DNA of 64,000 bases from Myxococcota bacterium (GTDB taxonomy: Bacteria > Myxococcota_A > UBA9160 > UBA4427): contig JASMLK010000080.1 of NCBI GenBank assembly GCA_030748735.1, forward strand, positions 16,697-80,696, read 5' to 3'. Below, one piece after another: positions 5,556 to 48,918 of the stretch; positions within the stretch are counted from its first letter, which is position 1, and each line of letters starts with the position of its first letter. Both the position numbers and the translations under genes were made by a program. The notes under the pieces are model-generated. The model was not told where the DNA came from. It did no database searches and saw nothing but the letters and a program-made list of their open reading frames with translations.

Positions 5556-6791
5556 CTACGCGTCGGATTCACCCGCGCGCCGCCGGCGACGGGCTGCGAG
5601 TTCGAGCTTCATCGACTTCAAGATCAAGCGCGGCAACCCCAGTGGATGCTGGCGCAGCTTGCGAAGCACCAGACGCAGCATATGGCGACGGCCATCGAAG
5701 TTCGCTTCGCGTTGCCCGTGCCCCATGTGCATGCCGAGGGCCGGAACGTCGATCACGTCGAGTGGGAGTTCGAAGCGAAACGTCTCGGTTCGCGGTGGCA
5801 GGCAGATGTCGTCGTTGCAGGCCTGGTAGCGCACGCGGACTTCGACTTCGGCGCTCGTCATGTCGAGGGGGCGCGTCTCGCTCGCAAGAACTCCCGTGGG
5901 ATAGACGGGGACCACAACGTCGAAGTCGCCACTGAAGACCGGTAGCTCCATGCCCATGCTCTCGAGGCGGAGGATTTCTGGCTCTGGCATCTGCGGCGGC
6001 TCGACGGCGAGCCCCGGAGGCCCAGCCACGTCGACCTGCAGCGGGATCATGCCTTCGGGCACCGGTTCGCCGTAGACGTGCATGCCCGCTGAGAGTTCGC
6101 AGCGAACGACGATCTGACGAATGACGCCCTGGCGAAGCGTCGCGCTGCCGCCGTGGACGAAAGCCGTCACGCGAACTTCGTCATCACCACCGCTGGCGCG
6201 CGGGGCGTCGTCTGCGATCACAGCGCGACCGAAGGCAGCGTCGATCAGCACTTCGGGGCTATCGCGCTTCTTGTAGGTGTCGTGAAAGAACTTCGCGACC
6301 ACGACACCCGCTTCGTCGGTCACGTAGACGCCGGGGTACGCAATGCCGTGGAGGAAGGCGTCGTCCTTGCCGACCTGGTCGTTCAGGATGCCGTATCGGC
6401 GGATGACTTCGGAGTCGATGTCGGAGAGCAGCCGAAACGGGATGTCCTGCTTGGCCGCAAACTCGCGGAGCACGGGCTGGTCGTCGTACGAGATTGCGTA
6501 GAGCTCGATCCCCGCGTCTTCGAACTTCGCAAAGGCGTCGCGCAGCTCACCGAGCTGCGTCCAGCACGGGGGTCACCAGACCGCGGAGCGATAGAAGACC
6601 ACCACCGCCTTCGCGTTGCCACGCGTCTTGTGGAAGTCGACGGGAACGCCGTCCTTGTCGGGCAACACGAAATCCGGGAGACGTTCGCCCACCTCGGGGC
6701 CAGTCGGGTGCGCGTTGGGCAGCCCGGAGCGAGCGGGGTGCCCGAGCGGCGCCGGGGCATCGAAACCGTGATGGTCGCGTTCGATCGTCAT
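5556..6791 (-). CDS. Predicted selenoprotein: PRX_like (AhpC/TSA redoxin) domain with W-U-P-P-C active site, fused to a DsbD-alpha-like domain; in-frame TGA at 6573..6575
   Basis: ORFs 6573..6791 and 5556..6473 are in the same frame, separated only by TGA (99 nt = 33 codons to the next listed Met). Read-through gives ..AVVVFYRSAVW-U-PPCWTQLGELRDAFAKFEDAGIELYAISYDD... The C-terminal half carries YQACNDDICLPP, a DsbD-alpha-type motif. GAGGAAGG RBS lies before the ATG at 6791. Confidence 0.75.
6541..6559 (-). promoter_or_regulatory. bSECIS-like hairpin downstream of the UGA at 6573..6575
   Basis: RNA reads UGA + 13 nt + CGCAGCUC-GGU-GAGCUGCG. Perfect 8-bp stem with a G-containing apical loop. 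Confidence 0.6.
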
Positions 6792-43299: not shown

Positions 43300-44094
43300 C
43301 TACTTGCGGAATTGCTTGAAGTCCGGCTTTCGCTTCTGCATGAAGGCCGTGACCGCTTCGATGTTTTCCGGTGAGCCGGCGAGCTTCATCATCAATTCGT
43401 CTTCGATCTCGCGTGCGGCCTGGATCGCGTCCTTGTGGGGCGCTTGCAGGGTCTGCTTGATGGCGCGCAGCGAAGGCACCGACCACTGTGCGATCTCGCG
43501 CGCTTTCGCGAGGGTCGAGTCGTGCAGCTCATCGTCGGGCAGGACTCGCGCGCACAGGCCCAGCTCGAGGGCGCGCGCCGCGTCGATCCACTCGGCGGTG
43601 AACATCAACTCGTTTGCGCGTTGTCGGCCGACGGTGGTCTGCAGCGTGTAACTGCTGGCGATCTCGGGCACGAGTCCGAGGTTGGCGAAGGGCAACCGCA
43701 TGCGAAGGCTTTCGCCGGCGTAGACGATGTCCGAGGCGACCGCGATCGTGCAGCCACCGCCGATCGCAACACCCTGCACACTCGAAAGCAGCGGCTTGTC
43801 GAATTCGAAGAGCGCGTCGACGCATGCGAAGAAGCCGCTCTTCTTCCCGTCCTTGCGCGGCGGTGGCGGTTCGCCGCTGAACGAACCGAGGTCGACGCCC
43901 GAGGAAAAGTTGCCGTCCGCCCCTGCCAGTACCACGACGGCCACGCGCGGATCGTCGCGTGCTTCGTAGAGGCAATCGGTGAGCGCGTCCCACTGTGCTT
44001 CGTGGAAGGCGTTCTTCTTTTCAGGACGATTGAGGGTGGCGAACAGCACGCCCTCGTCGTCGAGGTCGCGCAATACGAATTCGGATTCCGGCAC
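43300..44094 (-). CDS. Enoyl-CoA hydratase/isomerase (crotonase family)
   Basis: ATLNRPEKKNAF.., VVVLAGADGNFSSGVDL and GVAIGGGCTIAVASD are crotonase signatures. Confidence 0.9.
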   Translation of the reverse strand: MPESEFVLRDLDDEGVLFATLNRPEKKNAFHEAQWDALTDCLYEARDDPRVAVVVLAGADGNFSSGVDLGSFSGEPPPPRKDGKKSGFFACVDALFEFDKPLLSSVQGVAIGGGCTIAVASDIVYAGESLRMRLPFANLGLVPEIASSYTLQTTVGRQRANELMFTAEWIDAARALELGLCARVLPDDELHDSTLAKAREIAQWSVPSLRAIKQTLQAPHKDAIQAAREIEDELMMKLAGSPENIEAVTAFMQKRKPDFKQFRK

Positions 44095-44143
44095 CGGCAG
44101 CTCCTGGTATGAATGACACCGCCTCAGCAGCGGGCCGGAACCT

Positions 44144-44325
44144 TAGCCCGGATTATTCATGAACATCCGTAGCGAGACGGTGCAGATTCGTGCTCTGGCA
44201 AGAGAAATCGGCGTTCCGCCGCGCAGACGTGGTTCACCCCACGTCGAGCAGCGGGACGCCGATTTCTCTTGCCAGAGTGCGGAGATGTGCCGTCGCAGTA
44301 GGATGTTCATGAATAATGCGGGCTA
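44144..44325. repeat. Long imperfect inverted repeat (~75-nt arms, ~31-nt spacer with its own hairpin); MITE-like element or structured 5' leader
   Basis: Left arm 44144..44219 and right arm 44251..44325. Outer 25 nt TAGCCCGGATTATTCATGAACATCC / GGATGTTCATGAATAATGCGGGCTA differ by 1 mismatch. An inner 21 bp, CTCTGGCAAGAGAAATCGGCG, is perfect. The central hairpin is GACGTGG-TTCACC-CCACGTC (44226..44245). Confidence 0.7.
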
Positions 44326-44391
44326 GCAGCCCCGTGTTGCCCGCTGGGCTAGCTTGCCGCGCGCCCACCGCGCCCGGAGGTTCGATCCAGC

Positions 44392-45582
44392 ATGACGAGC
44401 TTCGACTACGCCGCTAGCCCCGACCCCATCCGCAACGACCTGGCCGATGCCCATCGCCGGCAGTGGCAACGCATCGCCAACACAGGCACCTGGCTCACCG
44501 GCGCCCAGCGGGTCGCCGTGGCGGAGGAAACGCGATGGGCGCGCGACTGCGCGCTCTGCCGCGAGCGCAAACGGGCGCTCTCGCCCTTCGCAGTCGACGG
44601 CGAACACGATCATGCGGGCGTTCTTCCGGCACCGATGGTCGACGAAATCCACCGTGTCACGACCGACGCGGCGCGCCTTTCGCAGAAGTGGTTCGAGTCG
44701 TTGCTCGAGCAGGGCCTCAGCGCCGACGCATACGTCGAGGCTCTCGGCGTCGCGGTCTGCACGATCAGCATCGACGGCTTTCATCACGCGATGGGACTGC
44801 CCGTCGAACCCCTTCCCGAACCGAACGACGGCGAGCCGACACGCGAGCGCCCCGACGATCTCGTCGAAGGTGAAGCCTGGGTGCCGATGCGCGCACCGAA
44901 GGGCCTCAGTGCAGAACTCGGCCTTCCGGCCGGACAGGCGCCCTACGTGATTCGCGCGCTCTCACTCGTCCCCGCCGAAGTCCACGCCTGGGATGACCTC
45001 AGCGCCGCCCAGTACCTGAACAAGCAACAGATGATGCGCTTCGAAAAGGTCCGCGCGATCGACCGCTCACAGATCGAACTCGTGGCCGGCCGCGTCAGCG
45101 CACTCAACGAGTGTTTCTACTGAACGACTTCCCACGCGGTGATGCTCCGTGCGAGCATCGAGTATTCGGGAAGTGGCGGGCAGCTCGGTGGCATCACAGA
45201 GGGTTCCAAGGCGGGTGACGCGGGCATCGAGCATGGCGAACGACTTACGGCCTTCGCGGACGCAGCGGTTTCGGGTGACCCGGCAGCGCTGGCTACTGCG
45301 CGGGACGCCCTGCGCGAAGCGGCCGGGTCCGCGGTCGTCGTCGACGCCGCCGGCGTGATCGGCAACTTCCAGCGCATGGTGCGCATTGCAGACGGCTCGG
45401 GGATCCCCCTCGACACCATGGTCGACACGATGTCGTCCGACATCCGCGAAGACCTCGGCCTCGAGGGCTTCGAGAGCCGCAGGCTCGCCGAGCAGGGTGC
45501 GCTCGCGAAACTGTTTGCGCCGGTTGCGCGCGGGGCTGCAATGCTGGGACTGCGTATCGCGGGCCGGCGCGGACGTCGCTAG
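44392..45582 (+). CDS. Predicted selenoprotein: AhpD/carboxymuconolactone-decarboxylase (CMD)-core protein, in-frame TGA at 45121..45123 (C-x-x-U-x-x-x-H)
   Basis: ORFs 44392..45123 and 45139..45582 share a frame (747 nt offset). Read-through gives ..VSALNECFY-U-TTSHAVMLRASIEY.., which matches the AhpD C-x-x-C-x-x-x-H spacing with the His located after the TGA. GGAGG RBS present. Confidence 0.75.
45141..45159 (+). promoter_or_regulatory. bSECIS-like hairpin downstream of the UGA at 45121
   Basis: UGA + 17 nt + GAUGCUC-CGUGC-GAGCAUC. 7-bp stem with a 5-nt loop whose second base is G. Confidence 0.6.
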
Positions 45583-45606
45583 CGGATAGAGAGGAGAAGC
45601 AACAAC

Positions 45607-46377
45607 GTGGATCGCTTCAGCGTCGCAGGCAAACACATCGCCATCACCGGTGCGTCGTCGGGCTTCGGGCACCACTTCGCTGGTGTGCTCGCGCGCGAAG
45701 GCGCCCGGGTAAGCCTCGGGGCGCGGCGCACGGAAAAGATCGAAGCGCGTGTCGACGGGCTGCGCGGCGAGGGTCACGCGGCTTTCGGTGCGGCCCTCGA
45801 CGTCTGCGACCGCGCGAGCATGGAAGCCTTCTTCACGACCATCGAAGCCGAGTTCGGCCCGGTCGACGTCTTGATCAACAATGCCGGGATCGAAGCCGGC
45901 GCCAAGACCTATACGATGATCGACGAAGACGACTGGGACGCGGTCATCGACACGAACCTCAAGAGCGCATGGCTCATGAGCAAGCTCTACACCGAGCGCG
46001 TCGTCGCCAACGAGCAGCGCGAAGGCAATATCGTGATGATCTCGTCGATCACCGACACGCGGACCATCAAGGGACAGTTCCCGTATGCGATCTCGAAAGG
46101 CGGCGTGACCCGCATGACCGAAGTCCTCGCCCTCGAAGCCCCGCGCTATGGCATTCGCGTGAACGCCATTGCGCCGGGCTACATCCTCACCGACGTGAGC
46201 CGCCTGGTCGTCGAGGGTGACAACGCCCCCGACTTCGTGAAAGGCATCCCGATGCGCCGCTTCGGAAAGTTCGAAGACCTCGACGGGCCGCTCCTGCTGC
46301 TCGCTTCGGACGCGTCGCGCTGGATGAACGGGTCGATCGTGGTGGTCGACGGCGGGCACGTCTGCGCTTCTCTCTAG
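45607..46377 (+). CDS. Short-chain dehydrogenase/reductase (SDR)
   Basis: ITGASSGFGHHFA (TGxxxGxG), NNAG, and S..YAISK catalytic residues. GAGGAGA RBS precedes the GTG start. Confidence 0.9.
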   Translation: MDRFSVAGKHIAITGASSGFGHHFAGVLAREGARVSLGARRTEKIEARVDGLRGEGHAAFGAALDVCDRASMEAFFTTIEAEFGPVDVLINNAGIEAGAKTYTMIDEDDWDAVIDTNLKSAWLMSKLYTERVVANEQREGNIVMISSITDTRTIKGQFPYAISKGGVTRMTEVLALEAPRYGIRVNAIAPGYILTDVSRLVVEGDNAPDFVKGIPMRRFGKFEDLDGPLLLLASDASRWMNGSIVVVDGGHVCASL

Positions 46378-46415: not shown

Positions 46416-47519
46416 CTATCCGACGCCCAGAACGCGCGCGGGGGCCTTTGCGGGGTCGCCGCGTTCGATCTCGGTGTTGGCTGCTCCGCCGAACGCATTG
46501 AGCCCCAGGCGTTCGCGAAAGTCGGCCGAGCCGTGGAGCGTGCCCTCGTCGAGCGGGATCCCGCTCGAGTCGGCGGTGCGAACGAGCCCGTTGAAGATGC
46601 CCACGATGCCGCAGGCTTCCACGAAGCCCGCTTCACCCAGCGTCTTTCGCACGGCCTCACGTGCGGGGTCCATGTCGTCGTTGCCTCGCGTGACGGCTTC
46701 GGCGAAACGCACGAGGGCTTCGCCGTGTTCGATGTCGGAGGCACCCTCCCCGCCCACGGTGGCGTCGAGATTCACTTCCTGGCCAAGCTTGTCGCTGCTC
46801 GCACGGAGCAGACCCACATGGGAGGTCGTTCAGTAGAAGCATTCGTTGACGGCGCTGACCCGGGCCGCGATGAGTTCGGCTTGCGGGCGATCGAGCGGCC
46901 CTCCCCACTCCATGTCGTAGAAGCCGCCCGAGCCGTTGCTGTACATCGCCATCACGTTGGCGAAGAACAGTTGGTTCGCCGACGGTACGAGCGATAGCGC
47001 TCGCGCAACGTTGGGCCCCGTGAAGGGATCGATCATGGGCACGTGGGCGCCTGCGTCGGTTGCTTCGGCGAGTCGGCCGCCGTCGGGTTCACCGGGCTGC
47101 GGGTCCGGCAGCGGTTCGTGCGCGCGCCCCAGGGCTTCGCTGTACGCATCGATCGCACTCATGCAGGCCACGATCGAGATCAGTTCGACGTACGCGCCGT
47201 CACCCAGGGCTGCGATCTTCTTCGCCGCCCACTCGGAATCGATCTTGTGCGCATCGGCCGCGATCGTGCGTGCGGCGTCGACCGCGACTTCGGAGAGACG
47301 GCCTTCGGCGTCCGGAAGACCTTCGCGCAACCACGACGGGTCACCCCGCTTCGCCCGCGTGGCCCGCGCCTGGCGCGCGATCTCGAGGCGTTGTTCGCCC
47401 GTGAAGTACGAACCCGCATTCGCGATCTGCTGCCAACTGGTGCGGTGGACCTGCTGGATCGTGTCGCGTACCGCGAACCCGTCACGGTCGTAGGCGAAGG
47501 TCGAATCGAAGGACGTCAT
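46416..47519 (-). CDS. Predicted selenoprotein: second AhpD/CMD-core protein, in-frame TGA at 46830..46832
   Basis: ORFs 46830..47519 and 46416..46817 are in frame (12 nt apart). Read-through gives ..VSAVNECFY-U-TTSHVGLLRASSDKL... Paralog of 44392..45582, with the same MTSFD N-terminus and NECFYUTTSH core. GGAGG RBS present. Confidence 0.75.
46795..46811 (-). promoter_or_regulatory. bSECIS-like hairpin downstream of the UGA at 46830..46832
   Basis: UGA + 18 nt + CUGCUC-CGUGC-GAGCAG. The loop is identical to the paralog's. One stem pair differs by a compensatory A-U to C-G change. Confidence 0.6.
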
Positions 47520-47581: not shown

Positions 47582-48229
47582 TCAGATCGGGCCGCGGCCC
47601 TTCCGCCCGCCGAGGATCCAACGAATCATTTCGAGGTGTTGGCCACCCCAGAAGAGTTCGTCGTCGATCCAATAGACGGGCGCCCCTACCGCCATCCCGC
47701 GATCGAAGAGTTCTTCTCCGAGTGCGGCCAAAGTCGCGGGGCCGCGATCTCGCTGCCACGCTTCGAAACCGTCGGCTTCGAGGCCGAGTGCTGCGACCTT
47801 TTTCGCAACGGCCTCCTCGTCCGAGGGATCCAATTCCAGCGCCCAGTACGCACGGAAGATCTCGGCGAGATAATCTGCGACGCACCCGGGGGCGTGTTCG
47901 CGCACCCAGAGCCAACCCACGTTGGCCGCTGCTGGATCGGGGTCACGATAGTAGTCGCGCAACACCAACCCCTGAGCGGACGCGTAGGTTTCGATTTCTC
48001 GCGCGATCTCGCTCGCACGAGAGCGGCGGTGGCGAACGCCGCGATCATCGTCCGCACCCGGCTGCGAAGGCGCCTTCAAGGATGGAACGCTTACGGGCAA
48101 CCAGTTGATGTCGATCCCCGCTTCTCGCCCGAGCTCGATCGTCGGGTGCAATGCGAGATACGTCAGTGGTTGACGCAGGTCGAGGAGTACCGTGAGGCGC
48201 GCTTCGTCGATCGCAGAAGAAAAGCTCAT
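47582..48229 (-). CDS. DsbA-like thioredoxin-fold protein, 2-hydroxychromene-2-carboxylate isomerase / GST-kappa family
   Basis: ..LLDLRQPLTYLAL.. N-terminal motif, with Gln where the family usually has the catalytic Ser. C-terminal GAPVYWIDDELFWGGQHL. Start overlaps the upstream stop (ATGA). Confidence 0.8.
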   Translation of the reverse strand: MSFSSAIDEARLTVLLDLRQPLTYLALHPTIELGREAGIDINWLPVSVPSLKAPSQPGADDDRGVRHRRSRASEIAREIETYASAQGLVLRDYYRDPDPAAANVGWLWVREHAPGCVADYLAEIFRAYWALELDPSDEEAVAKKVAALGLEADGFEAWQRDRGPATLAALGEELFDRGMAVGAPVYWIDDELFWGGQHLEMIRWILGGRKGRGPI

Positions 48230-48918
48230 GCCGCGAACGACCGATTCATCATCAGCGGAGCCGGGCCCTCCTTCCCGCTCAACAGCCAGGCGATGCGGGG
48301 GAGATGCTCGCGACCAAACCAGGCTTCGTCCTCGACGAGAAAGGTCGGCACACCGAACACGCCGCCATCGAAGGCGCGCGTGTTGACTTCGTCATGCAAC
48401 GCCCGCCCTTCGCCTGATGCGTAACTTTCGAAGCCAATCGTTTCGAGCCCGGCCTTCTTCAACACGCTTTCGAACACCGCGACGTCCTCGATGTCGAGTT
48501 CGCGGTTCCAGAACGGCGGATACACGGTGTCGAGAAAGCGATCGTACGCCTCAGGTCCCTGCGCCTTCGCCCACAGCATCGCAATACCGGCGAGACTCGA
48601 ATCCCAGATCTTGATCGTCCCCCGCACGGTCTTCCCGGTGAGATTCGCGTAGCGACGGGCGTCCATGTACGCGTACTTCACGCCCTTCCATTGCTGCGGT
48701 GAGCGCTTGCTCTTTGCGACCTTCCCCTTCTTGTCGAGCTTTGCGCTCCCGAGATAGCTCGGGATGTCGAGTGTGAAGGGGCGCCAGTCGACCTCGACGC
48801 CGAGCGCACGCGCCATGTCGCGCGTCGGCTCGATCGCGAGGTAGGCGTACGGGCTCTTGAGGTCGATGTAGACCGCGAGGGCGTGATCGCCGCGCAGCTC
48901 ACTGAATGCGTTCGACAT
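48226..48918 (-). CDS. DsbA-like thioredoxin-fold protein, 2-hydroxychromene-2-carboxylate isomerase / GST-kappa family
   Basis: VYIDLKSPYAYLA (the SPY motif carrying the Ser) and GVFGVPTFLVEDEAWFGREHL are family signatures. Confidence 0.85.
   Translation of the reverse strand: MSNAFSELRGDHALAVYIDLKSPYAYLAIEPTRDMARALGVEVDWRPFTLDIPSYLGSAKLDKKGKVAKSKRSPQQWKGVKYAYMDARRYANLTGKTVRGTIKIWDSSLAGIAMLWAKAQGPEAYDRFLDTVYPPFWNRELDIEDVAVFESVLKKAGLETIGFESYASGEGRALHDEVNTRAFDGGVFGVPTFLVEDEAWFGREHLPRIAWLLSGKEGPAPLMMNRSFAA

What the first reader, a model, noticed from the sequence alone, without database searches (positions are those of the whole stretch)
44392..45582. AhpD/CMD-type gene with UGA at the second redox Cys (E-C-F-Y-U-T-T-S-H)
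The first ORF ends ..RVSALNECFY at TGA 45121-45123. The next codons in the same frame are TTSHAVMLRAS.., and the listed ORF 45139..45582 is that same frame. This reconstitutes the AhpD catalytic spacing C-x-x-C-x-x-x-H (Cys130/Cys133/His137 in M. tuberculosis AhpD), with Sec in place of the second Cys and the essential His located after the stop. A hairpin GAUGCUC-CGUGC-GAGCAUC begins 17 nt after the UGA.

The joined protein is 396 aa, about twice a normal CMD protein. The ~240 aa before the Sec contain an additional C-A-L-C motif (..ARDCALCRERK..).
Basis: partly seen in the sequence, partly recalled or inferred. Interest (0 to 1): 0.75.

Follow-up and report, generated by a model that had tools for sequence, protein, structure and literature searches.

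The report
Known AhpD-related selenoprotein gene

Summary
ORF 44392-45123 ends ..NECFY-TGA and the same frame runs on (TTSHAVML..) to TAG 45580-45582, giving 396 aa. The joined protein (U->C) matches NCBIfam NF041238 [quoted passage not shown] end to end (473.8 bits, cut-off 175). A 2026 review lists NF041238 as a CxxU selenoprotein, the "hypothetical protein 1" of the 2005 Sargasso Sea study. All 80 related loci fetched, from several phyla, carry TGA at this codon, followed by 117-172 in-frame codons. Rare full-length homologs have Cys there. The AhpD-like domain straddles the UGA. The AhpD proton relay is complete: E229-x11-C241-x-Y243-U244-x3-H248, with Sec at the position of the attacking Cys133 of M. 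tuberculosis AhpD. The hairpin 45140-45160 keeps a fixed distance from the UGA, shows compensatory changes and frozen synonymous sites, and has decayed in two of three Cys forms, as expected for a bacterial SECIS. The N-terminal half is probably a second, degenerate AhpD-like domain that keeps only its CxxC. The window holds a second paralog (47519-46416, minus strand) and a third candidate selenoprotein (UxxC, TGA 6573-6575). The substrate, the partner and the Sec machinery were not found. Verdict: interpretation supported; already known; low interest.

The parts
44376..44380 (+). Shine-Dalgarno-like GGAGG, 11 nt upstream of the ATG
   Evidence: Read directly from the sequence. Homolog alignments start at the same Met.
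44392..45582 (+). Complete selenoprotein gene 1 (396 aa with Sec244; stop TAG 45580-45582), a member of NCBIfam NF041238 AhpD_rel_CFYUT
   Evidence: Translation. NF041238 E=3.7e-142, 473.8 bits against cut-off 175, residues 13-362 covering profile 1-357/357. tblastn runs through residues 1-396 in one frame in relatives.
44392..44826 (+). N-terminal domain (residues 1-145): six-helix bundle, probably a degenerate AhpD-like domain
   Evidence: AF2 model of this window segment has pLDDT 94.5 and pTM 0.89. The top 25 Foldseek PDB hits are all AhpD/CMD-family chains, TMq 0.5-0.61. hhalign of N-half against C-half gives P=0.0016 over 132 columns. The N-only profile's top PDB sequence hit is AhpD-like 2oyo at E=0.24, in the same register.
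44548..44559 (+). N-terminal C53-A-L-C56 motif (TGC GCG CTC TGC) at the start of a helix
   Evidence: Present in 81/83 family copies. Aligned with the catalytic CxxC/U position by hhalign and by the 2oyo alignment. It lacks the relay Glu (-12 is V41) and His (+4 is K60), read from the sequence.
44959..45477 (+). C-terminal canonical AhpD-like domain (about residues 190-362), which straddles the UGA
   Evidence: The family profile aligns to whole AhpD-like PDB chains 6k40, 2pfx, 3c1l and 2oyo (E 1.5e-9 to 4.5e-6) over profile positions 192-337. The model of Cys form P0263 superposes on 2prr, 3c1l, 6k40 and 6e8l with TMt 0.65-0.77.
45076..45078 (+). Glu229 codon (GAA), the relay Glu 12 residues before C241
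   Evidence: Invariant in the family. It corresponds to Mt AhpD Glu118 and PA0269 Glu36 (PMC3141380).
45112..45120 (+). C241-F242-Y243 codons (TGT TTC TAC): the first redox Cys (presumed resolving) and the relay Tyr
   Evidence: C241 is present in 83/83 copies. The C-x-Y-C arrangement matches PA0269 Cys48/Tyr50/Cys51.
45121..45123 (+). In-frame UGA = Sec244, at the position of the attacking Cys133 of Mt AhpD
   Evidence: TGA in 83/83 family copies examined. Cys in rare full-length homologs. Cys133 is the residue that cross-links to AhpC (PMC6626918).
45133..45135 (+). His248 codon (CAC), the relay His at +4 from Sec, encoded after the 'stop'
   Evidence: H in 83/83 copies. It corresponds to His137 and His55.
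45140..45160 (+). Bacterial SECIS-type hairpin: stem 45140-45147 pairs with 45153-45160, and the apical loop CGUGC is at 45148-45152 with invariant G29 and G31
   Evidence: Fixed register in 81 sequences. 92.1% of cells pair, against 25-55% when slid. 43 double-sided changes against 16.5+-2.8 in shuffles (0/500). Pair 22-38 is CG:40, AU:25, GC:4. Synonymous sites are frozen: Leu CTC 81/81, Arg never CGC, third position G 81/81, Ser AGC/AGT only. The hairpin is lost in 2 of 3 Cys forms.
45478..45579 (+). C-terminal hydrophobic and basic tail (..ALAKLFAPVARGAAMLGLRIAGRRGRR), outside the NCBIfam model
   Evidence: The profile ends at residue 362. Similar tails occur in the downstream fragments of homologs. 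Its function was not tested.
46416..47519 (-). Second paralogous selenoprotein gene of the same family (367 aa): ..AVNECFY-UGA(46832-46830)-TTSHVGLLRASS.., with no N-terminal CxxC
   Evidence: The joined protein scores NF041238 311.8 bits, profile 1-355/357. An ortholog is present in the syntenic locus L018.
46795..46811 (-). SECIS-type hairpin of paralog 2 (CUGCUC-CGUGC-GAGCAG), in the same register after its UGA
   Evidence: Sequence and fold. It matches the family consensus.

Best explanation
Window 44392-45582 (+) is one gene for a 396-aa selenoprotein of the catalogued family NF041238, the AhpD-related 'CFYUT' (seleno)protein. This is the 'hypothetical protein 1' of the 2005 Sargasso Sea selenoproteome.

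Shown here:
- UGA 45121-45123 is conserved at this codon across relatives from several phyla.
- It aligns with Cys in rare Cys forms.
- It lies inside, not between, a single AhpD-like domain.
- It is followed after a fixed 16-nt spacer by an 8-bp hairpin (45140-45160) with conserved loop guanosines, compensatory changes and frozen synonymous sites.

Inferred from established bacterial Sec biology: this hairpin is a SECIS that recruits SelB-GTP-Sec-tRNA(Sec) to the ribosome paused at the UGA, so Sec244 is inserted and translation continues.

Shown for the protein: it has two all-helical AhpD-like domains. The C-terminal one carries the complete AhpD proton relay, E229-x11-C241-x-Y243-U244-x3-H248.

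Inferred by analogy with M. tuberculosis AhpD, where the exposed Cys133 attacks oxidised AhpC and the buried Cys130 resolves: the selenolate of Sec244 attacks an oxidised partner (a peroxiredoxin sulfenate or disulfide, or a hydroperoxide directly). C241 then resolves the adduct into an intramolecular selenenylsulfide, and an unidentified reductant regenerates the centre. The N-terminal domain is a degenerate duplicate that keeps only a CxxC; it may be structural or a second redox centre.

A second paralog (47519-46416, minus strand) works the same way but lacks that CxxC.
For: - Family: NF041238 at 473.8 bits against cut-off 175, full length. NCBI names members 'alkylhydroperoxidase-related (seleno)protein'. 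The review PMC13188914 lists NF041238 as a CxxU selenoprotein equal to Sargasso 'hypothetical protein 1'. The original description reports CXXU plus a SECIS (PMC1088965).
- UGA conservation: TGA in 80/80 loci and both window copies, each with 117-172 further in-frame codons.
- Cys forms span the junction.
- The most conserved block abuts the UGA. Conservation continues after it: H248 in 83/83, plus F326, R331 and the AD..G.PLD block.
- The domain straddles the UGA. The model has pLDDT 93.9 and an AhpD fold.
- Relay residues match the published AhpD relay. Sec sits at the attacking-Cys position.
- SECIS. Control: the hairpin is decayed in Cys forms L081 and L083 and intact in the TGT form L082.
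- TGA is an ordinary stop at the natural C-termini of other Pfam-validated genes in the window, so this is not a code-4/25 genome.
- Two further in-frame redox UGAs in the same 64 kb argue that the organism decodes Sec.
- One Cys form is translationally coupled to an AhpC/TSA gene, which fits a peroxiredoxin-linked role.
Against: - No selA, selB, selD or tRNA-Sec was found in the window or in the fetched loci, so Sec-decoding capacity of this genome is inferred, not shown.
- No Rfam family matches the hairpin.
- Single-sequence folding energies are not significantly better than shuffles (z = -0.07 to -1.8).
- Pfam CMD is just under its gathering score (22.4 against 23), and TIGR00778 is below its cut-off for gene 1.
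- No gene family recurs next to the gene across 81 loci, so no partner or substrate can be named.
- The biochemical mechanism is by analogy only. No member of NF041238 has been characterised, as far as the papers searched show.
- The two-domain claim for the N-half rests on individually weak scores (Foldseek E about 0.02, hhalign P=0.0016, hmmsearch E=0.24).
Confidence: 0.93

Rival explanations
1. These are two separate genes. A 243-aa protein ends genuinely at TGA 45121-45123, and an independent ~147-aa protein starts at GTG 45139 or ATG 45142.
For: Public gene calls look exactly like this. 120/120 top homologs are 241-265 aa and end in ..ECFY. Hundreds of ~110-165-aa proteins match the downstream part.
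Against: - The downstream 'genes' have no conserved start (query positions 6-7, 13, 15-24, 29-44 and so on), and no RBS is visible before 45139.
- The frame is always maintained, with zero spacer, in 83/83 copies.
- The essential His and half of the AhpD-like domain lie after the TGA.
- Full-length Cys forms exist.
- The curated model spans both parts.
Confidence: 0.02
2. It is a pseudogene: a recent TGC/TGT->TGA nonsense mutation inactivated a Cys-type AhpD-like gene.
For: A single base change converts a Cys codon to TGA. Cys forms of the family exist.
Against: - TGA is at the same codon in 80/80 loci from Myxococcota, Binatia, Gammaproteobacteria, Thermoanaerobaculia, Spirochaetes and others, and in both window paralogs.
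- Downstream protein conservation and high GC3 are retained.
- The hairpin is under purifying selection and shows compensatory changes.
Confidence: 0.01
3. The UGA is read through, but not as Sec. Candidates are a reassigned code (UGA = Trp or Gly), near-cognate Trp/Cys insertion, or SECIS-independent programmed read-through.
For: No Sec machinery was seen in the window. No selenium data exist for this organism.
Against: - TGA ends many complete, Pfam-validated genes in the window.
- The aligned residue in homologs is Cys, the chemical analogue of Sec, at a redox CxxC.
- The hairpin has the position and loop guanosines described for bacterial SECIS elements (PMC1088965).
- The family is curated as a selenoprotein.
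- Two other redox-motif UGAs lie in the same window.
Confidence: 0.03
4. The conserved hairpin is only a by-product of the conserved peptide ..(M/L)LRAS.. and has no RNA function.
For: The hairpin overlaps a conserved peptide. Single-sequence stability is unremarkable.
Against: - Synonymous positions are frozen only within the hairpin: third-position entropy is 0 bits there against 1.4-1.85 bits in the flanks.
- CGC is never used for Arg, although it is 60% of Arg codons locally. Ser is never TCN.
- Amino-acid changes on the two arms covary so as to keep base pairs: M..I, L..G, A..A.
- Two Cys forms have let both the peptide and the hairpin drift.
Confidence: 0.03

Closest known systems
NCBIfam NF041238 'AhpD_rel_CFYUT', alkylhydroperoxidase-related (seleno)protein = 'hypothetical protein 1' of the Sargasso Sea selenoproteome (Zhang, Fomenko and Gladyshev 2005, PMC1088965; listed in PMC13188914)
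   Same: The same family by a curated full-length model (473.8 and 311.8 bits against cut-off 175 for the two window genes). The C-F-Y-U-T motif, the CxxU redox motif and the SECIS hairpin downstream of the UGA are all the same.
   Different: Nothing essential differs. The papers read here do not mention the apparent two-domain (duplicated AhpD-like) architecture, the conserved N-terminal CxxC, or paired paralogs in which one lacks that CxxC. The family's function remains uncharacterised.
AhpD-like protein selenoproteins (COG2128 / TIGR01926, CxxU; 'AhpD-like 1 and 2' of the GOS study, PMC2398784) and CMD-domain selenoproteins (PF02627, CxxU)
   Same: The AhpD/CMD fold. Sec replaces the second Cys of CxxC. 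Both are found mainly in environmental and marine bacteria.
   Different: Those are single-domain proteins that reach the TIGR01926 or PF02627 thresholds. This protein scores only 26.3 bits (cut-off 81.8) and 22.4 bits (cut-off 23) against those models and has an extra ~190-aa N-terminal half.
Mycobacterium tuberculosis AhpD (PDB 1knc, 1gu9, 1me5)
   Same: All-helical fold. The same proton relay, Glu118/Cys130/His132/Cys133/His137, corresponds to E229/C241/Y243/U244/H248. The second redox position is the attacking one.
   Different: Mt AhpD has Cys rather than Sec and is a 177-aa single chain forming trimers. Its gene sits next to ahpC, and its activity as an AhpC reductase is demonstrated. 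Here no ahpC is adjacent and no activity is known. Structural similarity to Mt AhpD itself is weaker than to the 'peroxidase-related' group.
'Peroxidase-related' AhpD-like structures 2prr, 3c1l (Mlr4105), 2pfx, 2oyo, D. radiodurans AhpD 6k40, and P. aeruginosa PA0269 (2o4d/2ijc)
   Same: These are the best sequence and fold matches of the C-terminal domain (E down to 1.5e-9; TMt 0.65-0.77). PA0269 shares the C-x-Y-C variant of the relay.
   Different: They are ~145-195-aa single-domain Cys proteins that oligomerise. The window protein fuses two such domains in one chain and uses Sec.
Sestrins (for example human Sestrin2, 5dj4)
   Same: One chain built from two AhpD-like helical halves. A weak whole-chain Foldseek match was seen (TMq 0.43, prob 0.75).
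   Different: They are eukaryotic with no detectable sequence similarity. The rmsd of about 15 A makes this an architectural analogy only.

Membership tests
NCBIfam NF041238 AhpD_rel_CFYUT (alkylhydroperoxidase-related (seleno)protein) | Whole-protein score above the curated cut-off (175 bits), with end-to-end coverage of the 357-position equivalog model | tested here: met
   Gene 1: 473.8 bits, profile 1-357/357. Gene 2: 311.8 bits, profile 1-355/357.
NCBIfam NF041238 AhpD_rel_CFYUT (alkylhydroperoxidase-related (seleno)protein) | C-F-Y-U-T motif, with Sec (or Cys) at the fourth position | tested here: met
   E-C-F-Y-UGA-T-T-S-H at 45109-45135. The same motif occurs in 80/80 loci.
Bacterial selenoprotein gene | An in-frame UGA conserved among orthologs, with conserved coding sequence on both sides | tested here: met
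   TGA in 83/83 copies, followed by 117-172 further in-frame codons. Conservation holds on both sides.
Bacterial selenoprotein gene | Cys-containing homologs aligned at the UGA position (a Sec/Cys pair) | tested here: met
   P0257, P0263, P0220, P0291, P0315 and P0327 carry Cys there.
Bacterial selenoprotein gene | A SECIS stem-loop shortly downstream of the UGA, with conserved guanosine(s) in the apical loop (as described in PMC1088965) | tested here: met
   An 8-bp stem starts 16 nt after the UGA. Loop C-G-(U/G)-G-N has invariant G29 and G31. Covariation and synonymous-site constraint are present. The hairpin has decayed in 2 of 3 Cys forms. No Rfam model matches it.
Bacterial selenoprotein gene | Sec-decoding machinery (selA, selB, selC/tRNA-Sec, selD) in the same genome | not testable with these tools
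   None was found among about 30 window ORFs scanned, and there is no tRNA in the window. The rest of the genome is not available. Indirect support comes from three redox-motif UGAs within 64 kb.
Bacterial selenoprotein gene | Selenium actually incorporated into the protein (75Se labelling or mass spectrometry) | not testable with these tools
   This is experimental.
AhpD-like / carboxymuconolactone decarboxylase superfamily (Pfam PF02627 CMD; TIGR00778 ahpD_dom) | Score at or above the curated domain threshold | tested here: not met
   Gene 1: PF02627 22.4 bits against 23, and TIGR00778 20.4 against 27.8. Gene 2 does pass TIGR00778 (29.6 against 27.8). Gene 1 is therefore borderline by single-sequence HMM, although the family profile hits AhpD-like PDB chains at E=1.5e-9.
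AhpD-like / carboxymuconolactone decarboxylase superfamily (Pfam PF02627 CMD; TIGR00778 ahpD_dom) | An all-helical AhpD fold, with the catalytic motif on a conserved two-helix hairpin | tested here: met
   The model of Cys form P0263 (pLDDT 93.9) superposes on 2prr, 3c1l, 6k40, 6e8l and 2ijc with TMt 0.65-0.77. The CxxC lies at the N-terminus of helix 251-268, after helix 234-247.
AhpD (alkylhydroperoxidase D, M. tuberculosis type) | Proton-relay residues Glu-x11-Cys-x-(His/Tyr)-Cys-x3-His (PMC3141380) | tested here: met
   E229-x11-C241-F-Y243-U244-x3-H248, with Sec at the second Cys. All are invariant in the family.
AhpD (alkylhydroperoxidase D, M. tuberculosis type) | Genomic linkage to ahpC or a peroxiredoxin partner | tested here: not met
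   No recurrent neighbour was found in 81 loci; the best family is an SDR in 8. The window neighbours are enoyl-CoA hydratase, an SDR, the paralog and a DsbA-like gene. The only exception seen is Cys form L083, which overlaps an AhpC-TSA gene by 4 nt.
AhpD (alkylhydroperoxidase D, M. tuberculosis type) | Demonstrated reduction of oxidised AhpC, or peroxidase activity | not testable with these tools
   This is biochemical. No characterised member of NF041238 was found in the papers searched.

The most novel reading that the evidence does not exclude
The protein may be a self-contained, two-centre selenoenzyme that arose by internal duplication of an AhpD-like domain. The degenerate N-terminal domain keeps its CxxC (conserved in 81/83 copies) at the ancestral catalytic position. 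In this reading it serves as an intramolecular relay that re-reduces the C241-U244 selenenylsulfide, so the enzyme needs neither AhpC nor a lipoamide-type partner. The co-resident paralog that lacks this CxxC would then be a functionally distinct partner or acceptor. The papers and model descriptions read here do not describe this architecture.
Probability: 0.2. Interest if true: 0.4.

Novelty: already known. Interest (0 to 1): 0.2.

Why it matters
The practical importance is for annotation. In public databases this gene and hundreds of its relatives are split at the UGA into a ~243-aa 'hypothetical protein' and a spurious ~110-165-aa ORF. Protein catalogues therefore hold two meaningless halves of an active site. 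Recognising the UGA as Sec restores a complete AhpD-type redox centre.

Biologically, the window adds an ordinary member, in fact two paralogs, to a selenoprotein family known since 2005 whose function is still untested.

The modest new points are these:
- The family appears to be a tandem of two AhpD-like domains.
- The Sec form overwhelmingly dominates over the Cys form.
- One Cys form retains a fossil SECIS.

These points could help choose constructs for a first biochemical characterisation.

Tried and rejected
- Rfam scan of 44000-46000 at E<=10: only chance-level hits, and none on the hairpin.
- Single-sequence RNA folding as evidence for the SECIS: rejected as uninformative in 65% GC sequence (z = -0.07 to -1.8). 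Comparative tests replaced it.
I modelled the Cys-form homolog P0263 and the window's own N-domain instead.
- Model coordinates are not exposed, so the distance between the N-terminal CxxC and the CxxU centre could not be measured.
- Search for Sec machinery: no tRNA in the window. No SelA, SelB or SelD among about 30 ORFs scanned. No tRNA-Sec in 0.9 Mb of related loci.
- Conserved gene neighbourhood as a clue to function: none beyond synteny with the closest relative L018.
- Considered and rejected: two independent genes, a nonsense pseudogene, an alternative genetic code, and a hairpin that is a mere by-product of peptide conservation (see rival explanations).
Full report
1. THE OBSERVATION

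- An ORF starts at ATG 44392, with GGAGG 11 nt upstream.
- It reads ..RVSALNECFY and meets TGA at 45121-45123.
- The same frame continues TTSHAVMLRASIEY.. without another stop to TAG 45580-45582, 396 codons counting the UGA.
- C-A-L-C is at residues 53-56.
- GAUGCUC-CGUGC-GAGCAUC begins 17 nt after the UGA.
- GC3 is about 0.8 on both sides of the TGA in this frame. The long antisense ORF 45067-46359 is the usual shadow ORF of GC-rich DNA.

2. WHAT IT IS

The joined protein (U written as C) matches NCBIfam equivalog NF041238 'AhpD_rel_CFYUT, alkylhydroperoxidase-related (seleno)protein'. The score is 473.8 bits (cut-off 175), covering all 357 model positions. Pfam CMD is only borderline (22.4 against 23 bits).

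I tested independently of that model whether the UGA is a Sec codon.

(a) The 120 best database homologs (64-100% identity) are all 241-265 aa and stop at ..ECFY. The family's most conserved block, RSQIELVAGRVSALNECFY, lies directly against the 'stop'.

(b) A scan of one genome per species found 371 relatives, and the best 80 loci were kept. They come from Myxococcota, Binatia, Gammaproteobacteria, Thermoanaerobaculia, Spirochaetes and other MAGs. tblastn runs through residues 1-396 in one frame.

(c) All 80 loci (81 copies) have TGA at the homologous codon, followed by T-x-x-H-x-x-x-L-R and 117-172 further in-frame codons. C241, the TGA and H248 are present in 83/83 copies.

(d) An exhaustive search with the C-terminal 152 aa found 875 relatives. 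Most are short ORFs starting at assorted internal codons, with no conserved start. Full-length Cys forms also exist: P0257 ..NNECFYCSASHSLML.., P0263 ..MNECFYCTNAHAMML.., P0220, and later P0291, P0315 and P0327.

(e) A family profile aligns whole ~190-aa AhpD-like PDB chains (6k40, 2pfx, 3c1l, 2oyo; E 1.5e-9 to 4.5e-6) to positions 192-337. The domain therefore straddles the UGA, and neither half-ORF is a complete domain.

(f) TGA is an ordinary stop at the natural ends of other Pfam-validated genes in the window. This excludes a reassigned genetic code.

3. THE HAIRPIN

In an ungapped alignment of 81 distinct sequences the hairpin keeps a fixed register. Columns 20-27 pair with columns 33-40, and the loop C-G-(U/G)-G-N has invariant G29 and G31.
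- 92.1% of cells are paired, against 25-55% when the partners are slid.
- There are 43 double-sided changes, against 16.5+-2.8 in shuffles (0 of 500 reach this).
- Pair 22-38 alternates C-G (40), A-U (25) and G-C (4).

Synonymous sites are frozen exactly over the hairpin.
- Leu is CTC in 81/81.
- Arg is CGT or CGG and never CGC, although CGC is 60% of Arg codons in this window's genes.
- The next codon ends in G in 81/81, across four different amino acids.
- Ser is AGC/AGT in 76/76 and never TCN.
- Third-position entropy is 0 bits there and 1.4-1.85 bits in the flanks.

As a control I fetched the DNA of three Cys forms. Two (L081, L083) have lost the hairpin, with 5/8 and 4/8 pairs. One (L082, codon TGT) keeps it perfectly, which fits a recent Sec-to-Cys conversion with a fossil SECIS.

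Single-sequence folding energies are not significant, and Rfam has no matching family. The case for the SECIS is therefore comparative.

4. HOW IT MOST LIKELY WORKS

The hairpin has the position and loop guanosines described for bacterial SECIS elements (PMC1088965). The inference is that SelB delivers Sec-tRNA(Sec) to the UGA.

The published AhpD proton relay is Glu118/Cys130/His132/Cys133/His137 in M. tuberculosis and Glu36/Cys48/Tyr50/Cys51/His55 in PA0269 (PMC3141380). The window protein has E229-x11-C241-F-Y243-U244-x3-H248. All five positions are present and invariant in the family.

In Mt AhpD the exposed Cys133, not the buried Cys130, forms the cross-link with AhpC Cys61 (PMC6626918). 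Sec244 therefore occupies the attacking position and C241 the resolving one.

The inferred cycle is as follows. The selenolate attacks an oxidised peroxiredoxin or a hydroperoxide. C241 resolves the adduct to a selenenylsulfide. An unknown reductant regenerates the centre.

No partner can be named.
- Gene order is shared only with the closest relative L018.
- No family recurs beside the gene in 81 loci.
- One Cys form (L083) overlaps an AhpC/TSA gene by 4 nt.
- The GOS study noted one Prx-like/AhpD-like gene pair (PMC2398784).

5. ONE OR TWO DOMAINS

The result is pLDDT 93.9, pTM 0.93, all-helical. About half of it superposes on ~190-aa AhpD-like chains (TMt 0.65-0.77), and Sestrin2 appears weakly for the whole chain.

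The window's own residues 1-145 model as a six-helix bundle (pLDDT 94.5). Three lines of evidence bear on its identity.
- Its top 25 Foldseek PDB hits are all AhpD/CMD-family chains (TMq 0.5-0.61, E about 0.02-0.1).
- hhalign of the N-half profile against the C-half profile gives P=0.0016 over 132 columns. It places C53-x-x-C56 on C241-x-x-U244, and GLPxEPLP on GIPLD.
- An N-domain-only profile's top hit among 177,635 PDB sequences is again an AhpD-like protein, 2oyo. At E=0.24 it is not significant alone, but it has the same CxxC register.

The three lines are individually weak but agree. The protein is probably a tandem of two AhpD-like domains. The N-terminal one is degenerate: it has no relay Glu or His but keeps the CxxC in 81/83 copies. 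I put about 0.75 on this.

6. KNOWN OR NEW

CxxU 'AhpD-like' selenoproteins were reported in 2005 and 2008 (PMC1088965, PMC2398784). [quoted passage not shown] The 2005 paper describes that family as having a conserved CXXU motif and a SECIS. NCBI already names members 'alkylhydroperoxidase-related (seleno)protein'.

The finding is therefore correct but already known, and the gene is an ordinary member. The points I did not see described are minor:
- the likely internal duplication;
- the strong dominance of Sec over Cys forms (0 Cys among the best 80 loci, and a handful among hundreds of database hits);
- the paired paralogs.

7. OTHER THINGS IN THE WINDOW

- A second paralog lies on the minus strand (47519-46416). 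It reads ..AVNECFY-UGA(46832-46830)-TTSHVGLLRASS.., has the same hairpin core, and scores NF041238 311.8 bits, but it lacks the N-terminal CxxC.
- A third candidate selenoprotein has W-UGA-P-P-C (TGA 6573-6575, minus strand) in an AhpC/TSA domain fused to DsbD_N.
- A ~185-nt near-perfect palindrome (44143-44326; -142 kcal/mol, z = -19) sits in the divergent promoter region upstream of gene 1. It is absent from the syntenic gap of L018.

8. VERDICT

- Observation: confirmed.
- Interpretation: supported.
- Confidence that this is a genuine Sec-decoding member of NF041238 with a functional SECIS: 0.93.
- Novelty: already known.
- Interest: 0.2.

Noticed in passing
window 46416-47519 (- strand); TGA at 46830-46832: A second paralogous selenoprotein gene of the same family (367 aa, ..AVNECFY-UGA-TTSHVGLLRASS..). 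It converges on gene 1 with an SDR gene (45607-46377) in between. It has the same SECIS core CUGCUC-CGUGC-GAGCAG but lacks the N-terminal CxxC (ARATRAKRGDPSW instead). An ortholog is present in the syntenic locus L018. L057 and about four other loci also carry two copies.
   Followed up: yes
window 5556-6791 (- strand); TGA at 6573-6575: A third candidate selenoprotein: ..VVFYRSAVW-UGA-PPCWTQLGELRD.., a U-x-x-C motif in an AhpC/TSA (BCP/PrxQ-like) domain fused to a DsbD_N domain. The ORF after the TGA starts at Pfam AhpC-TSA profile position 39. A possible hairpin GCAGCUC-GGU-GAGCUGC lies about 14 nt after the UGA. No NCBIfam model passes its cut-off.
   Followed up: partly
window 44143-44326 (intergenic, between the divergent enoyl-CoA hydratase gene 43300-44094 and gene 1): A ~185-nt near-perfect palindrome made of nested inverted repeats (25-nt arms 96% complementary, 47-nt arms 81%). 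It folds at -142 kcal/mol, z = -19.4. It occurs once in the window and is absent from the ~96-nt syntenic gap of the closest relative L018. It looks like an inserted MITE-like or palindromic element, and its effect on expression of gene 1 is unknown.
   Followed up: partly
L082:164-1267 (Cys form P0315): This Cys form uses TGT at the Sec position yet retains the complete SECIS-type hairpin (CGTTGCTC-CGGGT-GAGCGGCG, 8/8 pairs). The more divergent Cys forms L081 and L083 have lost it. This suggests a recent Sec-to-Cys conversion with a fossil SECIS.
   Followed up: partly
L083:1-1320 (Cys form P0327, GCA_038320445.1): This Cys-form gene overlaps by 4 nt the end of an upstream AhpC-TSA/Redoxin gene. 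It is the only hint found of an operon link between this family and a peroxiredoxin.
   Followed up: no
proteins P0139 (204 aa) and P0262 (249 aa): Odd short variants. P0139 joins the first ~50 residues of the N-domain (..AAETRRA) directly to the segment that follows Sec (TSHAMMLRAS..), at the position that the N/C domain alignment treats as equivalent. P0262 joins the N-half to the last ~100 residues. They could be natural deletions, assembly chimeras or gene-call artefacts.
   Followed up: no
window 45478-45579 (residues 363-396 of gene 1): A C-terminal tail rich in hydrophobic and basic residues (..LFAPVARGAAMLGLRIAGRRGRR). It recurs in many homologs but lies outside the NCBIfam model. It may be an amphipathic membrane-associating helix.
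   Followed up: no
window 48226-48918 (- strand): A DsbA-like thioredoxin-fold gene lies 0.7 kb from paralog 2 and is conserved in L018. With the two AhpD-related genes it forms a small cluster of thiol/selenol redox genes, embedded among acyl-CoA metabolism genes (thiolase-like, enoyl-CoA hydratase, SDR, CoA-transferases).
   Followed up: no
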